Part shown: in pieces, positions 58,982 through 64,000 of the stretch
Layout of the letters: every line of letters begins with the position of its first letter
How positions within the stretch are numbered: position 1 is the stretch's first letter
Assembly (NCBI GenBank): GCA_041749335.1
Contig: JBGTBM010000007.1
Span: 149,957-213,956, forward strand
Length of the DNA: 64,000 nucleotides
DNA from: Patescibacteria group bacterium
Lineage (GTDB): Bacteria; Patescibacteriota; JABMPQ01
Direction of reading: 5' to 3'
The notes under the pieces: model-generated
Told to the model about the DNA's origin: nothing
Databases searched by the model: none
The model's input: the letters and a program-made list of their open reading frames with translations, nothing else
Made by a program: the position numbers and the translations under genes

Positions 58982-59431
58982 ATGTATAAGAACTGGAAGG
59001 CAATTTGTGAAGTTAAGGATAATCATATGATGTGGGCGCTGGCGCTCCTTGATCTGACATCCGATCTTGGTCGAAGGTTCGTGGAGCAACTTCCGGAGTT
59101 TTTCTCACAGGAAGAGACTGCCGGACCTTATCCGCTGTCACTTATGCGGGAAGCAGCGCAGGAAAATGGAAGAAAACAGGGCACTGACAATGGGGCAAAT
59201 TACATTGTCTCTCACGATGGCGTACCCGGCCACATTCCTGTTAAGATGTTTGACAAGTTTGGCAAGAATGTTGCTTCTCTCAACGGACCAAAGCTGCCTG
59301 ACGAGATCAGTCCGGATGCTCGCGCGGGTGAAACAGTTACCTGGGAGGGTAAACAGTTCGTTGTATTGGAAAACAACGATAGCTGTGAAGAGCTAGCGAT
59401 TGCGCCGGCAGAACTGATCTTTGTTGATTGA
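58982..59431 (+). CDS. Hypothetical protein encoded by a GC-enriched cassette
   Basis: A strong ribosome-binding site (AAGGAGG, 6 nt spacer) and a TTGACA -35-like hexamer upstream. GC is around 48% against a roughly 33% background. No recognisable family. Confidence 0.55.
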   Translation: MYKNWKAICEVKDNHMMWALALLDLTSDLGRRFVEQLPEFFSQEETAGPYPLSLMREAAQENGRKQGTDNGANYIVSHDGVPGHIPVKMFDKFGKNVASLNGPKLPDEISPDARAGETVTWEGKQFVVLENNDSCEELAIAPAELIFVD

Positions 59432-59586
59432 TCTTTAATCCAATTAAATTTATTAGTATTCCGCATTGGAGAGTTAATCTAATGCGGTTTTTTATACAAA
59501 AAAATATTCAAAACAATTTTAGTTATTATTCGGGAAGAATGTGAAGTAAAATTGAATCTGAACAAATAGAATTAGATAATTGCAGC

Positions 59587-59694
59587 CCTATTATTTTTAT
59601 CTCTGTGCGTTTAAAAACAATGTCTTTTTACGTGAAGAGATTTTACTAAATTCCCTCGTGCACATCGAGGGATTTTTAATTAATTTAAATTTTA
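59587..59694 (+). repeat. Direct repeat copy 2 (relic gene 3' end + terminator + AT-rich tail)
   Basis: Contains the relic reading frame '...LLFLSLCV*' (compare copy 1 '...VLFSSPCA*') plus the same terminator arms. Confidence 0.7.
59653..59677 (+). terminator. Rho-independent terminator (CCCTCG-TGCACAT-CGAGGG + ATTTTT)
   Basis: A 6 bp stem with a 7 nt loop and a T-run. This is a paralog of the 58811 terminator. Confidence 0.6.
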
Positions 59695-59753
59695 TAGACC
59701 AGCAAAGAAAATTTATAATATTGCGACAATCTGAAACATGATAAAGTCGGATT

Positions 59754-60189: not shown

Positions 60190-60741
60190 TTATTTCGATG
60201 TGCTTGCGCGCTGAAACAACAGCGCCGATATTACAAAGAGCATGGCAAAACACGCATTTAGAACAAACACCCGAAACACGCTTGGCGACCAGGAGGTAGT
60301 AGAAGGCGGCCAGATAATGAGTGCTATCAGGGGAACCGACATTTGCGCCACAGCCGTCGTAAATAATGTTATTGCCATTCCGCGCGGCTTAAAGCGTGCC
60401 ATCAAGGAGCCGATTAATCCGACCGCGAATACTATTGTATACATCAGGTTGGCGGGTTGATCTTCGTTCCCGATGATGCCGACAGCGCCATTCACGAAAA
60501 AAAGGAAGAAAGCTCCCATAAGTCCAATGCTAAAAGCGGCTCGGTACACGGATTTCTCCACCCTTCTTGCAATTAGCTCATACGCAAAGGCAAGGCTTGA
60601 CAGGACAACGCCCATTAAGATGAAATCGAACAAGCTCCAATTCACTTCTTTAGTAAATTGCATTGCGATAAGTGGTATCATCAATACGAGCGCGATGGCG
60701 GCAGCCCACACAATTATTCTTTTTGCAATATTTTGCATCAA
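60190..60741 (-). CDS. Hypothetical membrane protein (5-6 TM)
   Basis: 183 aa, hydrophobic, comparatively GC-rich. Probably co-transcribed with the LMW-PTP/ArsC-like gene. Confidence 0.45.
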   Translation of the reverse strand: MMQNIAKRIIVWAAAIALVLMIPLIAMQFTKEVNWSLFDFILMGVVLSSLAFAYELIARRVEKSVYRAAFSIGLMGAFFLFFVNGAVGIIGNEDQPANLMYTIVFAVGLIGSLMARFKPRGMAITLFTTAVAQMSVPLIALIIWPPSTTSWSPSVFRVFVLNACFAMLFVISALLFQRASTSK

Positions 60742-60808: not shown

Positions 60809-61897
60809 TCATGAATTAGGATCCGCTTTCTTAATAATTTTTACGGTGCCATTTTTTGTATTTACTTCGACTACGTCATCATTTTTAATTGCTTTTGTGG
60901 CAATTTTAGTAGCGATTAATGTTGGTTTTTTTAATTCTCGCGAGATTATGGCGGCGTGGCAAGTTAAACCTCCTTCATCAGTCACTATCGCGGCAGCTTT
61001 TTTCATTGCCGGTAGGAAATTTGGAGCGGTCATTGCCGTAACTAAGATTCCATCCTTCGGAAAATTATTTATATGGTGACTAAGGAAGATTAAAAAAGCT
61101 TTGCCCCGAACTGTTTTTCCAATATATGCTGATTGTCCTTTAAAAAAATTTATTCCTTTTTCAAAAAAATCAAAAGTATAATTTGCATCTTGCAGTAATT
61201 TTGGAAAAGACTTATTAACATATAATTTGCCATTGATAATAACATAGCCCTTCTGCCTTGCTTTTAATTTATCTATATTTATTGAATATTTTTCGGCAAA
61301 TAATTTATTAAATTCGGATAAAGTTAAAAAGCGGGCGAGCAAAGGATCCGCATTTAGATATCTTAGCTTTTCAGCTACTATTTTTCTAATAAATAAATCC
61401 ATTGATTCAAAAATTCCTTCAATTTTTATCCTAAGATTAAAAAAGTCATTGATGATTCTTTCACTGTCGCTACCGCGCAATTTTTTAAAGTCATCGGACC
61501 ATGGTCCGGGTAAAAAATTTGCCAGCATATAACCCGGGTACATTTCAGACCATAAATGAAAAATTTCATCTATCAGGTCGGTATAATCATTTTCTGTTTT
61601 TTTGTTAAGTAAAAATTTTATCCGTTTTACCGCAGCAATGGTTATTCGAATACGGTTTTGAGAAAACAGCGGGTGATTCGTTGGCAAATTAATTACATGA
61701 TTTTTAATTTTTTCGACTTCATCGTGTATGCGATACGATTCAATTACTTTGCCATTAAAATGAATAATTTGGTCAGAAATAGTAATTCCCCAAATTTTCT
61801 TTATATCCTTGAGAAGCAGTTGGTCCCGCCAAAAAATACAAGTAAATAAAGAAATATCTCTAGTGAAGATTAAATCCAATTTTTTTAATTTTGTCAT
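60809..61897 (-). CDS. PEP-utilizing enzyme mobile (phosphohistidine swivel) domain protein with an uncharacterised N-terminal domain
   Basis: The C-terminal 'GILVTAMTAPNFLPAMKKAAAIVTDEGGLTCHAAIISRELKKPTLI' is a PEP-utilizers motif with the phospho-His. The N-terminal roughly 270 aa has no recognisable motifs. Confidence 0.6.
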   Translation of the reverse strand: MTKLKKLDLIFTRDISLFTCIFWRDQLLLKDIKKIWGITISDQIIHFNGKVIESYRIHDEVEKIKNHVINLPTNHPLFSQNRIRITIAAVKRIKFLLNKKTENDYTDLIDEIFHLWSEMYPGYMLANFLPGPWSDDFKKLRGSDSERIINDFFNLRIKIEGIFESMDLFIRKIVAEKLRYLNADPLLARFLTLSEFNKLFAEKYSINIDKLKARQKGYVIINGKLYVNKSFPKLLQDANYTFDFFEKGINFFKGQSAYIGKTVRGKAFLIFLSHHINNFPKDGILVTAMTAPNFLPAMKKAAAIVTDEGGLTCHAAIISRELKKPTLIATKIATKAIKNDDVVEVNTKNGTVKIIKKADPNS

Positions 61898-62006: not shown

Positions 62007-62567
62007 TTAGTTTATATTTGTCAAATGATTCCTGTCTTGTTCTGATGTCCATTTGAAAGGATTATTTTGTACGTATTTACGAATATTAAATAATGATTTT
62101 TCATTGCGAATAATATGGTCATAAAAAGATTTCTGCCAGACAAATTCATCATTATTTTTTTCACGAAAATATTTAGTAACGCCTATTTTGAAACCGCGGA
62201 TAATTGATGATAGCGATTTTGATAATTTTGTTTGCCATGGAAGGGAACAAAAATTTTTGTTCCCTTCATCATTATTTTTAATTATCACGATTCCGTGAAT
62301 ATGGTTTGGCATAATTATAAATTCATCCAATATCACGTTTGGGAAATGATCCGGAATTTCCCGCCAGCATTTTTTTGTGATTTTCCCATATTCATTCAAC
62401 GTCAATTCTCCGTTTTTTATTTCACCGAAAAATTCCTGCCGATTTTTGGTACAAATGGTGACAAAATAATACCCATTTTGGGAATAATCATATCCTTTCA
62501 ACCTGTTTAATTTGCGATCGGGCAAATTTTGCCCTCTTTTACCCGATTTCTTTATTATATTCTTCAA
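62007..62567 (-). mobile_element. IS200/IS605-family Y1 (HUH) transposase, RAYT/TnpA_REP-like
   Basis: 'YFVTICTKNRQ' (like the IS200 'Y..VW.PKYR' block), the HUH motif 'MPNHIHGIVII', and the catalytic Tyr context 'WQKSFYDHIIRNE' typical of REP-associated tyrosine transposases. Confidence 0.7.
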
Positions 62568-62693: not shown

Positions 62694-63110
62694 TTATCTT
62701 TTTTCACCACATTTCAAACAAGAATCTCTATGTACACAAAGCAATTCTCCACATTTTGGGCATTTCCATATTTTTTGTTCGGATTTAACAAATTTCTTAA
62801 TTCCAAATTTATTAATAAATTCTAGATTTTCAAGCATACTCATTCCGTATTTGGTTCGATACCTCTTATCGAGATTTTTTAATCTTGTGCAGGGGAATTT
62901 TTTACACTTATCCGAACAAAATTTCCATTTATTTTTCTTTAGGATTTGGCAACTTCTTATGATGCATTTTCTACCATAACTTGATCGGTATGCATCCATT
63001 TCTCTACAGCCGAGACATTTATTTTTCTCTCTAAGATAACCCAAGCAAATTCCACAATTCATTCCGCAAGGGGCAACTAGTTTGGGATTAATTGTAGATT
63101 TTTTGTTCAT
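62694..63110 (-). CDS. Cys-rich zinc-ribbon-like protein (DUF3795-like)
   Basis: 138 aa with about 8 CxxC pairs ('CGMNCGIC', 'CLGC', 'CKKFPC', 'CPKCGELLC', 'CLKCG'). Confidence 0.5.
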   Translation of the reverse strand: MNKKSTINPKLVAPCGMNCGICLGYLREKNKCLGCREMDAYRSSYGRKCIIRSCQILKKNKWKFCSDKCKKFPCTRLKNLDKRYRTKYGMSMLENLEFINKFGIKKFVKSEQKIWKCPKCGELLCVHRDSCLKCGEKR

Positions 63111-63185
63111 ATAAAAAAAGAAAGTCCAATTATTTAAATTTATTTAATATCGTGGTCTGGATAATATTGAATATAACATTTGCGT

Positions 63186-63503
63186 ATATCTGATGTTTTA
63201 CGGAGTGAAGGCTAGGCAAAGTTTCGTAAAAATTTGCCTGTCCTGAGCATGTCGAAGGGAGCATAGCCGTTTAGCCGTTGTTATGCGAAGTCGCGCAGCG
63301 ACTATCGGCTAGCCGCCGCCATTAGGCAAAAGAGCGAAGCGATTTTGCCTAACGTTCCAGCGTATGCGATGTTTTTGCGACCAACGGGAGCAAAAATATG
63401 GGAGAGGGGCGAGCCGAGCCCCGAACCGCATACGCTGTGTTATACGCCCCGACGACCGAAGGGAGGAGAGCGCAGCGGGGCGCGACTGAAAGGAGCGAGT
63501 TCA
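63186..63503. ncRNA. Candidate structured non-coding RNA (class not assigned), GC about 60% in an AT-rich background
   Basis: No credible ORF. Nested helices: 213-220/233-240; 272-277/306-311 enclosing 289-294/298-303; a 10 bp hairpin 322-331/343-352; an 11 bp long-range helix 359-369/427-437 enclosing hairpins 372-378/390-396 and 406-410/418-422; and 445-451/476-482. Confidence 0.45.
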
Positions 63504-63627
63504 AAAAATATTTTTCATTCAATTTCATTTTGACAGGCTTTTTATTCAATAATCATAAATTTGTTTTTTTGTTTTGGATTTTGGGCAGAGGGGTTAGGGG
63601 TGAATGCCCAAAATCCAAAACTCCTTA

Positions 63628-64000
63628 TTATTCAATTCTGTATCCTATTCGAACAATTGGTGTATATCCAGCATTTGAGCATTGTCGTTGCCATTCGGCG
63701 AGTTTCATCATAAAAATCAGTGATTTGATTTCTGATATTTGTGTAATTTCCGTTTGCCGATCAAGAATAAGCCAAAGGCAGATGTTTTTGGGTTTTATGT
63801 CTTGACTATCAATTTGGATCGTAGACGTTTGGCTCTGTAAAATTTTTATCGTGGCAACGGCTTGATCTATCACATATCCTAATTTTTGTGGCGTGCCAAT
63901 TTTTACAAAATAGGCCACGTCATCTTTGTATAAATCCAATTTCTCTATTTTGTACTGTTGTAGCGACTCAATTTGGCGATCTAAATTTTTATAGCCATCT
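63628..64000 (-). CDS. Hypothetical protein, N-terminally truncated by the window end (about 124 C-terminal aa visible)
   Basis: The reading frame is open from the window edge to the TAA stop at 63628. No recognisable family; it contains 'LYKDDVAYF'. Confidence 0.4.
   Translation of the reverse strand, partial: DGYKNLDRQIESLQQYKIEKLDLYKDDVAYFVKIGTPQKLGYVIDQAVATIKILQSQTSTIQIDSQDIKPKNICLWLILDRQTEITQISEIKSLIFMMKLAEWQRQCSNAGYTPIVRIGYRIE

What the first reader, a model, noticed from the sequence alone, without database searches (positions are those of the whole stretch)
63186..63503. About 320 bp GC-rich, heavily base-paired non-coding block with no obvious family assignment
GC jumps from about 33% (genome background) to about 60% over roughly 320 bp with no plausible ORF on either strand.

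The stretch is almost wall-to-wall helices. Two hairpins share the same arms (TAGGCAAA/TTTGCCTG at 213-240, and TTAGGCAAAA/TTTTGCCTAA at 322-352). A perfect 11 bp long-range helix (CAGCGTATGCG 359-369 / CGCATACGCTG 427-437) closes a two-hairpin junction. A GCA-triloop hairpin is nested inside a 6 bp helix (272-311). A 7 bp GC helix follows at 445-482.

By eye I do not see RNase P P4 (GGAAAGTCCGGGC), a tmRNA tRNA-like end, or a convincing SRP helix-8 consensus.

The block sits between an IS200/RAYT-type transposase, a Cys-rich protein and a truncated gene. That leaves three possibilities: an element-associated guide/regulatory RNA, a retroelement-type template, or an unannotated housekeeping ncRNA of a divergent CPR lineage.
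Basis: seen in the sequence. Interest (0 to 1): 0.75.

Follow-up and report, generated by a model that had tools for sequence, protein, structure and literature searches.

The report
Folded-DNA recombination sites of gene cassettes
The GC-rich, hairpin-packed block is most likely not an RNA gene but the folded-DNA docking sites (integron attC-like) at the end of an array of mobile single-gene cassettes, a system found widely in ultra-small bacteria and archaea and apparently run by a simpler recombinase than classical integrons use.

Summary
No Rfam family, tRNA or tmRNA matches it.

The block recurs in 70 species-representative genomes, mainly CPR bacteria and DPANN archaea. There it forms co-oriented arrays with a median spacing of about 1 kb. 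Each copy lies just 3' of an unrelated accessory ORF.

The repeat unit is about 100 nt. It has AAC/GTT boxes, an 11-bp helix and two hairpins, with strong compensatory covariation. The strand that folds is antisense to the ORFs.

Arrays stop at a divergently transcribed 270-aa tyrosine recombinase resembling XerA and IntI. It lacks the IntI-specific domain. A conserved attI/dif-like site lies upstream of its gene.

The 3' box of each unit is complementary to the 5' box of the next unit across the ORF. That is the signature of circularisable cassettes.

The window holds one intact unit (63347-63445), its conserved 3' module, and one ORF-less cassette with a degenerate unit.

The neighbouring RAYT and DUF3795 genes are unrelated to the block.

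Verdict: an integron-like attC site, a new variant of a known kind. No recombinase gene lies in the window; the contig beyond 64000 could not be retrieved.

The parts
63347..63445 (+). Intact attC-like unit A. It runs from the 5' R box GCCTAAC (63347-63353) to the 3' R box GTTATAC (63439-63445). The predicted strand-exchange point is AA|C, between 63352 and 63353.
   Evidence: The covariance model R1 hits 63332-63459 at 135.9 bits, E = 2.4e-28. The ssDNA fold of the + strand reproduces the consensus structure including the R box, at -25.2 kcal/mol, z = -4.2. Near-identical copies in other genomes lose similarity to the left of AAC.
63358..63437 (+). P1 is the 11-bp helix 63358-63368 with 63427-63437. 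Its inner TATGCG/CGCATA part is the proposed L arm. P1 encloses P2 (63369-63399) and P3 (GGGGC 63406-63410, loop GAGCCGA, GCCCC 63418-63422).
   Evidence: Nine of the 11 P1 pairs show changes on both sides. All five P3 pairs covary, including complete arm swaps. A G.U pair is conserved in P2 in 54 of 60 sequences.
63177..63352 (+). ORF-less cassette M, lying between the predicted crossovers at 63176|63177 and 63352|63353. It contains the degenerate unit A' and the hairpin 63322-63352.
   Evidence: The same kind of module lies directly beside the attI-like site in L008, L011, L013, L018, L021 and L055. It lies directly beside an E module in L007, L013, L045, L038 and L042.
63156..63300 (+). Degenerate or chimeric attC-like unit A'. 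The R box ATATAAC (63171-63177) and P2 are kept; P1 is broken.
   Evidence: R1 scores 33.2 bits, E = 4.4e-5, with non-paired P1 positions marked. nhmmer gives E = 7.7e-10. The ssDNA fold is not better than shuffles, z = -0.6.
63322..63352 (+). Hairpin TTAGGCAAAA / TTTTGCCTAA. It is read here as the 3' R-box half of cassette M pairing with the 5' R-box half that precedes unit A.
   Evidence: The arms covary completely in L007, L013, L045, L038 and L042. The general rule that the 3' box of unit k pairs with the 5' box of unit k+1 is shown.
63446..63570 (+). Conserved spacer of the E module. It has a GC-rich part (helix 63445-63451 with 63476-63482) and an AT-rich part (TTGACAGG... TAAATTTG). Its function is unknown.
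   Evidence: It is 96-99.6% identical in L007-L010, L012-L014 and L060, beside unrelated ORFs. The spacing between its AT-rich motifs varies between subfamilies, which argues against a fixed -35/-10 promoter.
63571..63621 (+). Terminal hairpin H. It has a 17-bp stem and the conserved loop GAGGGGTTAGGGGTGAA, and lies six bases from the cassette ORF's stop codon.
   Evidence: repeat I1. The ssDNA fold gives z = -5.8. The loop motif has 48 matches in 37 loci, all co-oriented with the units. Stems differ in sequence between copies.
63628..64000 (-). Cassette ORF X, of the DUF6119 family. It is cut by the window end. Its stop codon is at 63628-63630.
   Evidence: Homologs are 190-201 aa and carry PF19614. 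Homolog loci L083-L086 carry no unit, so the gene and the recombination module are separable.

Best explanation
The block is DNA-level machinery of an integron-like gene-cassette array, not an RNA gene.

What the window contains:
- One intact attC-like unit of about 100 nt (63347-63445).
- The conserved 3' module 'E' that this unit belongs to (63353-63627), which follows cassette gene X.
- One ORF-less cassette 'M' (63177-63352), which carries a degenerate unit.

Proposed mechanism (inferred):
1. When the + strand is single-stranded, the unit folds. The + strand is antisense to the cassette genes; in integron terms it is the bottom strand.
2. The 5' box ...YTAAC pairs with the 3' box GTTAR..., and the inner part of helix P1 (TATGCG/CGCATA) forms a second arm.
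3. The hairpin therefore mimics the double-stranded core site TCGTATAA-N7-TTATGCGA that lies upstream of the recombinase gene in related genomes.
4. A tyrosine recombinase of about 270 aa binds the two arms. It resembles XerA and IntI and lacks the IntI-specific domain.
5. It exchanges one strand at AA|C. Exchange with the attI/dif-like site inserts a cassette. Exchange with another unit excises one.
6. Replication resolves the product, as in integron attC x attI recombination and CTX-phage integration at dif.

Shown here: recurrence, array organisation, co-orientation, covariation, strand asymmetry, recombinase adjacency, the attI-like motif, and box complementarity across each ORF.

Inferred: that single-stranded DNA is the substrate, the recombinase's activity, and the exact cleavage point. 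It is also inferred that the source genome carries the recombinase to the right of position 64000.
For: 1. Recurrence. A translated-frame scan of the block found 70 loci in species-representative genomes. nhmmer and the model R1 find 173 units in 71 sources, 172 of them on the same relative strand.

2. Array organisation. Median unit spacing is 1023 bp. The longest ORF between two units is antisense to the unit strand in 95 of 104 intervals.

3. Cassette content. The ORFs are unrelated accessory genes: an MBL-fold protein, an SDR, methyltransferases, APH-like and ANT(2'')-like enzymes, a deaminase, Fic and NUDIX proteins.

4. Structure. 88.9% of cells pair, against 71.3% in shuffles. There are 298 double-change cells against 104.5, and the covariation score is 0.411 against 0.131. 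Slid controls give 0.05-0.11.

5. Folding strand. G.T pairs number 386 against 63 A.C, so the + strand is the one that folds. The ssDNA fold of the + strand gives the consensus structure with the R box.

6. Recombinase at the array end. A tyrosine recombinase is present in 14 loci. It lies on the units' strand in 12 of them, so it is divergent from the cassette ORFs. No unit lies beyond it in 13 of them, although there are kilobases of sequence on that side.

7. Reciprocal test. Four of the five have 1-4 strong units, all upstream of the gene and on its strand, and none downstream.

8. attI-like site. The junction ...ATTTNNNNYAAC|TCGTTTYTATRCGAA lies upstream of the recombinase start codon, about 110-130 nt away in four of the five reciprocal-test loci and about 280 nt in the fifth.

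9. Cassette signature. The variable part of the 3' box of unit k is complementary to the 5' box of unit k+1, across the ORF, at 6 or more of 8 positions in 27 of 84 pairs. The rate is about 5% for a unit's own box, the previous unit's box, or random pairs. Binomial p = 3e-15.

10. Recombinase family. It scores near cut-off on NF040815, named 'tyrosine recombinase/integron integrase', and below cut-off on TIGR02249 in two pieces. The alignment to VchIntIA (2a3v) skips IntI residues 186-238. It is colinear with P. abyssi XerA.
Against: - No recombinase gene and no attI-like site lie inside the window. The source contig beyond 64000 could not be fetched.
- The window shows only one ORF cassette and one ORF-less cassette, so the array architecture is inferred from related loci.
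- The unit lacks the extrahelical bases typical of attC. It also has a conserved three-way junction where canonical attC sites are variable.
- The recombinase lacks the domain that IntI uses on folded attC.
- The canonical attC covariance model (IntegronFinder) could not be run.
- E is 93-99.6% identical across genomes labelled as different phyla and domains. This is unusual for attC sites and could partly reflect mis-binned MAG contigs.
- Covariation alone cannot tell folded DNA from RNA.
Confidence: 0.8

Rival explanations
1. The architecture is the same, but the platform is the cell's chromosome-dimer resolution system. The recombinase would be the housekeeping XerA-type enzyme and the 'attI' would be dif. 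The cassettes would then be miniature IMEX-type elements that integrate at dif through a folded single-strand mimic of dif, as CTX phage does, rather than a dedicated integron.
For: - The L055 recombinase is colinear with P. abyssi XerA and has no insertion. NF040815 is an archaeal XerA model.
- The site next to the gene is a dif-like imperfect palindrome, TCGTATAA-N7-TTATGCGA.
- The recombinase gene sits among housekeeping genes in L078-L082.
- One platform, L079, has the site and the gene but no strong unit.
- In the window, gene orientation flips and cumulative GC skew peaks near 59.5 kb, which could mark a terminus.
Against: - Known IMEX elements are phages, plasmids or islands with many genes, not arrays of single-gene cassettes each with its own folded site.
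- The flanking gene orientation at L079 is divergent, not convergent as expected at a terminus.
- Whether a second Xer or a separate dif exists in these genomes was not testable here.
- This rival changes the name of the platform, not the nature of the block in the window.
Confidence: 0.3
2. The unit is a structured RNA. It would be either an antisense or small RNA transcribed from the + strand, or a 3'-UTR element of the cassette mRNAs that acts in regulation, stability or termination. On this reading its link to the recombinase is indirect.
For: - Covariation is strong, and the junction and loop nucleotides are conserved (AWGUU, AUWUGGGNGA, GAACC, loop GAGCCGA), which is typical of functional RNAs.
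- A TTGACA motif lies on the + strand at 63530-63535.
Against: - The folding strand is antisense to the cassette mRNAs: 386 G.T against 63 A.C. A 3'-UTR structure is therefore excluded.
- The scan found no promoter-like site upstream of the unit on the + strand.
- The TTGACA motif lies downstream of the unit, and its spacing to the next motif varies between subfamilies.
- An RNA model does not explain the AAC/GTT boxes, the similarity break at AA|C, the shared half-site with the attI-like junction, or the box complementarity across ORFs.
- No Rfam family matches.
Confidence: 0.08
3. The block is a cluster of REP/BIME-like or IS200/IS605-derived palindromic elements, mobilised by the Y1 (RAYT-type) transposase encoded 0.6 kb away at 62007-62567.
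For: - A Y1_Tnp protein lies nearby.
- The block is made of GC-rich hairpins, several with GCGAAGC-type mini-loops that are stable in single-stranded DNA.
- The copies are co-oriented, as expected for single-strand transposition.
Against: - No RAYT homolog was found by tblastn in any of the 70 element-bearing loci, about 700 kb in all.
- No other copy lies in the remaining 63 kb of the window.
- The units are 100-nt three-way junctions, not 20-40 nt palindromes.
- The arrays end at a tyrosine recombinase.
Confidence: 0.02

Closest known systems
Integron attC sites and gene-cassette arrays (sedentary chromosomal integrons, e.g. the Vibrio cholerae VCR array, and CALINs)
   Same: - One site follows each mostly promoterless single-gene cassette, in co-oriented arrays with a spacing of about 1 kb.
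- The boxes are RYYYAAC and GTTRRRY.
- Structure is conserved rather than sequence.
- The folding strand is the one antisense to the cassette genes.
- Box complementarity across each ORF indicates circular cassettes.
- The recombinase gene is divergent from the array, with an attI-type site ending in G|TT.
- Cassettes carry accessory cargo, and ORF-less cassettes occur.
   Different: - The recombinase lacks the IntI-specific additional domain, the I2 helix region.
- The unit has no evident extrahelical bases.
- It has a conserved three-way junction with conserved loop and junction bases where attC has a variable terminal structure.
- It often comes with a conserved 180-nt extension and a second hairpin, H.
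- One subfamily is 93-99.6% identical across phyla and across the bacteria/archaea divide.
- The hosts are CPR bacteria and DPANN archaea.
Archaeal integrons and CALINs (Ghaly et al. 2022, PMC9668308)
   Same: attC arrays were reported in DPANN archaea, including Nanoarchaeota orders such as Woesearchaeales and SCGC-AAA011-G17. Most have no adjacent IntI. Near-identical attCs were seen across domains.
   Different: That study describes IntIs that carry the additional domain, and it does not cover CPR bacteria. Whether its attC set includes this family could not be checked here.
CTX-phage type IMEX integration at dif by Xer recombinases
   Same: An unadorned Xer-type recombinase would act on a folded single-stranded hairpin that mimics its double-stranded core site. 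One strand is exchanged and replication resolves the product.
   Different: IMEX elements are whole phages or islands, not arrays of single-gene cassettes. It is not shown that the site here is dif.
REP/BIME elements with RAYT transposases
   Same: These are also GC-rich extragenic hairpins in 3' intergenic regions, and a Y1 transposase is encoded nearby in the window.
   Different: No RAYT is linked to the units in any related locus. The units are larger and branched, and they are confined to arrays next to a tyrosine recombinase.

Membership tests
Integron attC site / cassette array | Inverted core boxes R'' (RYYYAAC) and R' (GTTRRRY) at the two ends of the site | tested here: met
   AAC and GTT are present in 90% or more of 60 diverse units and pair with each other (98.3% of cells paired). 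In the window they are GCCTAAC at 63347-63353 and GTTATAC at 63439-63445.
Integron attC site / cassette array | The site is recognised as a folded single strand, so structure is conserved while sequence varies (paired L box) | tested here: met
   Nine of the 11 P1 pairs change on both sides. The covariation score is 0.411 against 0.131 in shuffles and 0.05-0.11 in slid controls. That the folded molecule is DNA is an inference.
Integron attC site / cassette array | The recombinogenic (folding) strand is the bottom strand, antisense to the cassette ORFs | tested here: met
   G.T pairs number 386 against 63 A.C on the + strand. ORFs are antisense to that strand in 95 of 104 intervals.
Integron attC site / cassette array | Extrahelical bases in the L box and an unpaired central spacer | tested here: inconclusive
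   P1 is a continuous helix with no conserved bulge. Between the R box and P1 there is an asymmetric internal loop, GTTY on one side against T on the other. This could play the spacer role. No canonical extrahelical bases were seen.
Integron attC site / cassette array | Length of about 57-141 nt | tested here: met
   The window unit is 99 nt from box to box (63347-63445). The model has 128 positions including flanks.
Integron attC site / cassette array | Cassette signature: the bases after the crossover at the start of a cassette are complementary to that cassette's own R'' | tested here: met
   The 3' box of unit k pairs with the 5' box of unit k+1 at 6 or more of 8 positions in 27 of 84 pairs, against about 5% in controls, p = 3e-15.
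Integron attC site / cassette array | An adjacent, divergently transcribed integrase gene with an attI site | tested here: inconclusive
   This is met in related loci. Fourteen loci have the recombinase at the array end, and four of five independently chosen recombinase loci have units upstream. The attI-like junction is seen. It is not visible in the window itself, and the contig beyond 64000 was unavailable.
Integron attC site / cassette array | The integrase carries the IntI-specific additional domain (I2 helix) | tested here: not met
   The alignment to VchIntIA (2a3v) skips IntI residues 186-238. TIGR02249 matches in two pieces and below its cut-off. The proteins are 270-285 aa and colinear with XerA.
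Integron attC site / cassette array | Detection by the curated attC covariance model (IntegronFinder) | not testable with these tools
Xer/dif IMEX | A Xer-type recombinase and a dif-like palindromic core site at the integration point | tested here: inconclusive
   The recombinase is XerA-like. The core TCGTATAA-N7-TTATGCGA lies next to its gene. Neither identity with dif nor a location at the replication terminus was established.
REP/BIME with RAYT | Association with a RAYT gene and dispersal of short palindromes across intergenic regions | tested here: not met
   No RAYT homolog occurs in the 70 loci. The window has no other copy in 63 kb.
Catalogued structured RNAs (RNase P, tmRNA, SRP, 6S, introns, ribozymes, omega/bridge RNAs) | A match to an Rfam covariance model or an ARAGORN call | tested here: not met
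   There is no hit in the block at gathering score or at E<=10, and no tmRNA.

The most novel reading that the evidence does not exclude
CPR bacteria and DPANN archaea carry a widespread integron-type cassette platform whose recombinase is a plain XerA/IntI-like enzyme without the I2 'additional domain'. That domain is considered the key innovation that let integron integrases use folded single-stranded attC sites.

If this reading is right, the system is one of two things:
- a surviving proto-integron stage, in which a Xer recombinase works on hairpin mimics of its own core site; or
- an independent solution that reads a conserved three-way junction instead of extrahelical bases.

Its recombination modules, at 93-99.6% identity, would be exchanged between phyla and between the two prokaryotic domains.
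Probability: 0.45. Interest if true: 0.85.

Novelty: new variant of a known kind. Interest (0 to 1): 0.7.

Why it matters
- **A gene-capture platform in CPR and DPANN.** If confirmed, ultra-small, host-dependent CPR and DPANN organisms have a dedicated platform that shuffles single accessory genes, including antibiotic-modifying-enzyme-like and toxin-like genes. They would share its modules across phyla and domains.
- **The origin of integrons.** Current work (PMC7790495, PMC4792948, abstracts) ties recombination of folded single-stranded DNA to the acquisition of the I2 helix by a Xer-like ancestor. A natural system with attC-like cassettes and no I2 domain would make that transition directly testable.
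- **Annotation.** GC-rich, hairpin-dense intergenic blocks in AT-rich CPR genomes should not be annotated as novel ncRNAs without checking for this repeat family. These repeats also break assemblies: a Logan contig ends inside the block, and many related contigs end at units.

Tried and rejected
- **Rfam.** Searches at gathering score and at E<=10 found nothing in the block. ARAGORN found no tmRNA.
- **Leader or riboswitch of the DUF3795 gene.** Rejected. Five homolog loci have no similar upstream sequence.
- **REP/RAYT link.** Rejected.
- **BLAST against phage and plasmid collections.** Only chance 27-nt matches. A viral-contig scan with the translated block found no relative.
- **Retrieving the source contig beyond 64000.** Look-ups of two window proteins returned only a Logan contig that ends inside the block. 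The truncated gene X has no exact full-length entry. An exact 37-mer from the window end is absent from the JGI metagenomes.
- **Gene X always travels with the element.** Rejected. Its homolog loci have no units.
- **A fixed -35/-10 promoter in the AT-rich spacer.** Not supported. The motif spacing varies, and the scan found no such site.
- **A protein-coding reading of the 62-66 aa ORFs across the unit.** Rejected because of the compensatory changes and arm swaps.
- **The hairpin 63322-63352 as an inverted-polarity attC in itself.** Replaced by the reading that it reflects pairing between box halves of neighbouring cassettes.
Full report
**1. Observation**

The block is real. GC reaches 0.60-0.61 at 63200-63549 against a window mean of 0.356, the highest peak in the window.

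The shared-arm hairpin pattern occurs three times in the block and nowhere else in the window, against 0.01 expected.

The folding energy is better than shuffled controls on both strands. Rfam gives nothing in the block at gathering score or at E<=10. ARAGORN finds only two tRNAs, at 38.4 kb.

**2. Neighbours**

To the left, all on the - strand, lie:
- a DUF3795 Cys-rich gene (62694-63110);
- a Y1/RAYT-type transposase (62007-62567);
- a PEP-utilizers-domain gene.

To the right lies a - strand gene cut by the window end.

Homologs of the DUF3795 protein sit in varied contexts with no similar upstream sequence, so the block is not its leader. A Logan contig from the source sample ends at window 63340, inside the block. 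This was a first hint that the block is repeated DNA.

**3. Recurrence**

No DNA-similarity search of large collections was available. I therefore translated the longest stop-free frame of the block and used it as a pseudo-protein query, which seeds the scan with six degenerate 24-nt patterns.

The viral collection gave nothing. The collection of species-representative genomes gave 70 loci. Their labels include:
- CPR bacteria: Saccharibacteria, Moraniibacteriota, Peregrinibacteria, Uhrbacteria, Magasanikbacteria, Gracilibacteria and others;
- DPANN archaea: Woesearchaeota, Nanoarchaeota, Micrarchaeota;
- a few others. Several AT-rich contigs labelled 'Gammaproteobacteria' look like placeholder taxonomy.

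nhmmer with the window sequence found 117 matches in 71 loci. All matches within a locus were on one strand, often 2-4 per locus.

**4. Anatomy from the alignment**

Near-identical copies define a sharply bounded module E.
- On the left it begins after ...YTAA|C, at window 63353.
- On the right it ends at ...CCAAAACTCC, at 63627, directly before the stop codon (TTA on the + strand) of a - strand ORF.

E is 99.3-99.6% identical in L007, L008 and L009. It is about 96% identical in L010, L012 and L014, and 93.5% identical over 186 nt in a Nanoarchaeota single-cell genome. The adjacent ORFs are unrelated to one another.

Iterated nhmmer on the most widely conserved 130 nt converged on 183 copies, 180 of them co-oriented. 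In the window there are two: 63332-63459, and a weak one at 63165-63288.

**5. The unit**

The consensus, read along the + strand, is:
- ATTTCnnnTAAC;
- GTTnn;
- P1 (11 bp);
- P2 hairpin, which begins AWGUUUU and ends AAAAUWU;
- UGGGnGA;
- P3 hairpin, with loop GAGCCGA;
- GAACC;
- the 3' strand of P1;
- T;
- GTTAnnnG.

On a MAFFT alignment of 60 diverse copies:
- 88.9% of cells pair, against 71.3% in shuffles;
- 298 cells change on both sides, against 104.5;
- the covariation score is 0.411, against 0.131 in shuffles and 0.05-0.11 in slid controls.

A covariance model built from this alignment (R1) finds 173 units in 714 kb, 172 of them co-oriented. In the window it finds unit A at 135.9 bits and the degenerate unit A' at 33.2 bits, and nothing else.

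**6. Which strand folds**

Across 150 model-aligned units there are 386 G.T pairs and 63 A.C pairs on the + strand. Two G.T positions are nearly invariant.

As single-stranded DNA, the + strand of unit A folds into exactly the consensus structure, including the AACG/TGTT box helix (-25.2 kcal/mol, z = -4.2). The - strand does not form the box.

The folding strand is antisense to the neighbouring ORFs. This excludes a 3'-UTR structure in the mRNA. It also matches the bottom-strand rule for integron attC sites; that rule is from my knowledge of the integron literature.

**7. Array architecture**

Median unit spacing is 1023 bp. The longest ORF between consecutive units is antisense to the unit strand in 95 of 104 intervals.

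The ORFs encode unrelated accessory functions:
- an EamA fragment;
- a metallo-beta-lactamase-fold protein;
- a PLP enzyme;
- an SDR;
- methyltransferases;
- an APH-type phosphotransferase;
- an ANT(2'')-like nucleotidyltransferase;
- a cytidine deaminase;
- Fic and NUDIX proteins;
- kinases.

**8. The recombinase**

Clustering all ORFs of the loci singled out one recurrent protein that is not an artefact of the repeat: a tyrosine recombinase, present in 14 loci.
- In 12 of these it lies on the unit strand, so it is divergent from the cassette ORFs.
- In 13 no unit lies beyond it, although several kilobases were examined on that side.

Family assignment:
- It scores around the cut-off of NF040815, named 'site-specific tyrosine recombinase/integron integrase' (an archaeal XerA model).
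- It scores below the cut-off of the IntI model TIGR02249, in two pieces.
- Against solved structures, one member matches VchIntIA best but skips IntI residues 186-238, the IntI-specific domain.
- Another member matches P. abyssi XerA colinearly.
- Thousands of homologs of about 270 aa exist. NCBI names some of them 'tyrosine recombinase/integron integrase [Patescibacteria]'.

**9. Reciprocal test**

- Four of the five have 1-4 strong units (E <= 1e-11). All are upstream of the recombinase gene and on its strand; none is downstream.
- The fifth has only a marginal hit.

**10. The attI/dif-like site**

Upstream of the recombinase start codon there is a conserved junction...ATTTnnnnYAAC|TCGTTTYTATRCGAA. 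It lies about 110-130 nt from the start codon in four of these five loci and about 280 nt in L081. A second TATACGAA repeat follows nearer the gene.
- Left of the bar, the sequence is the same kind of 5' box half that precedes every unit.
- Right of the bar, it is specific to the platform.
- Together they form an imperfect palindrome, TCGTATAA-N7-TTATGCGA, the layout of a tyrosine-recombinase core site.

The 5' strand of a unit (GTATAAC-GTTCCAGCG-TATGCGA) is colinear with this site. Its 3' strand supplies the complement, so the folded unit mimics the double-stranded site.

**11. Cassette signature**

If the crossover is at AA|C, a mobile cassette consists of a unit body, its ORF, and the 5' box half that lies beyond the ORF. 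That distal half should therefore pair with the unit's 3' box.

It does. The 3' box of unit k is complementary to the 5' box of unit k+1 at 6 or more of 8 variable positions in 27 of 84 pairs. The rate is about 5% for the unit's own 5' box, the previous unit's box, or random pairs (p = 3e-15).

The hairpin 63322-63352 is the 3' box of an ORF-less cassette M pairing with the 5' box half in front of unit A. The same kind of M module sits directly beside the attI-like site in six loci, and beside E in five others.

**12. What was excluded**

- No RAYT homolog occurs in the 70 loci.
- Gene X belongs to DUF6119, and its homologs elsewhere carry no unit.
- The AT-rich spacer does not behave like a fixed promoter.
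- The literature library holds no paper linking attC or integron integrases with CPR lineages beyond resistome surveys.
- Ghaly et al. 2022 report attC arrays in DPANN archaea, but with IntIs that have the additional domain.

**13. Limits**

- The recombinase and the attI-like site are not in the window, and the contig beyond 64000 could not be obtained.
- Folded DNA as the substrate, the cleavage point and the recombinase's activity are inferences from integron and CTX-phage precedents.
- Whether the platform is a dedicated integron or the cell's Xer/dif system is open.
- The roles of the conserved three-way junction, the 180-nt spacer and hairpin H are unknown.
- Some cross-phylum identity may reflect mis-binned short contigs, although the 44-kb single-cell contig L034 argues that this does not explain all of it.

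**Verdict**

The finding is a real, non-coding, structured element. It is best read as attC-like recombination sites at the end of an integron-like cassette array: a new variant of a known kind.

Noticed in passing
window 63571-63621; also 48 sites in 37 related loci: Hairpin H has a conserved loop, GAGGGG-N(2-8)-RGGGTGAAT. Its stems reach 16-17 bp and differ in sequence between copies, framed by GTTT...AAAC. It lies within a few bases of the stop codon of cassette ORFs. It is always co-oriented with the units, and sometimes occurs in tandem or without a unit. It has no U-tract in either direction, and its function is unknown.
   Followed up: partly
L078 9869-9950, L079, L080, L082 (about 60-130 nt upstream of the recombinase start): The attI/dif-like region carries a second TATACGAA repeat about 45 nt closer to the recombinase gene. 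This recalls the accessory direct repeats of integron attI sites.
   Followed up: partly
window 60809-61897 (-); L023 1780-2100; L038 9789-10181: The PEP-utilizers mobile-domain gene outside the array in the window has homologs (44-48% identity) that are cassette ORFs directly beside E modules in two other genomes.
   Followed up: partly
window about 59400-59750: Gene orientation switches from the + strand to the - strand here, and cumulative GC skew peaks near 59.4 kb. This could mark the replication terminus, about 4 kb from the array, and bears on whether the platform's site is dif.
   Followed up: no
window 63340 (end of Logan contig L001/L077): The only retrievable assembly of the source sample breaks inside the loop of the 63322-63352 hairpin. 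In the related genomes, 10 of 180 units touch the end of the held locus. These repeats fragment assemblies.
   Followed up: partly
window 62007-62567 (-): This is a RAYT/IS200-like Y1 transposase (PF01797, E = 5e-7). No REP-like repeats were seen in the window, and it has no link to the cassette units. It may be domesticated or a remnant.
   Followed up: partly
L034 92-292 (Nanoarchaeota SCGC AAA011-G17, 44-kb contig); L024 (Micrarchaeota): The bacterial E module is 93.5-95.7% identical in archaeal genomes, one of them a single-cell assembly. This suggests recent cross-domain transfer of cassettes or of their recombination modules.
   Followed up: partly
L016, L018, L022, L025, L026 and other loci: Many AT-rich contigs that carry CPR-type arrays are labelled 'uncultured Gammaproteobacteria' in their records. 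This is probably placeholder or erroneous taxonomy.
   Followed up: no
window 60190-60741 (-): This is the second GC-rich stretch of the window's right end (about 0.50-0.55 GC). It is an ordinary multi-pass membrane-protein ORF, not another copy of the element.
   Followed up: partly
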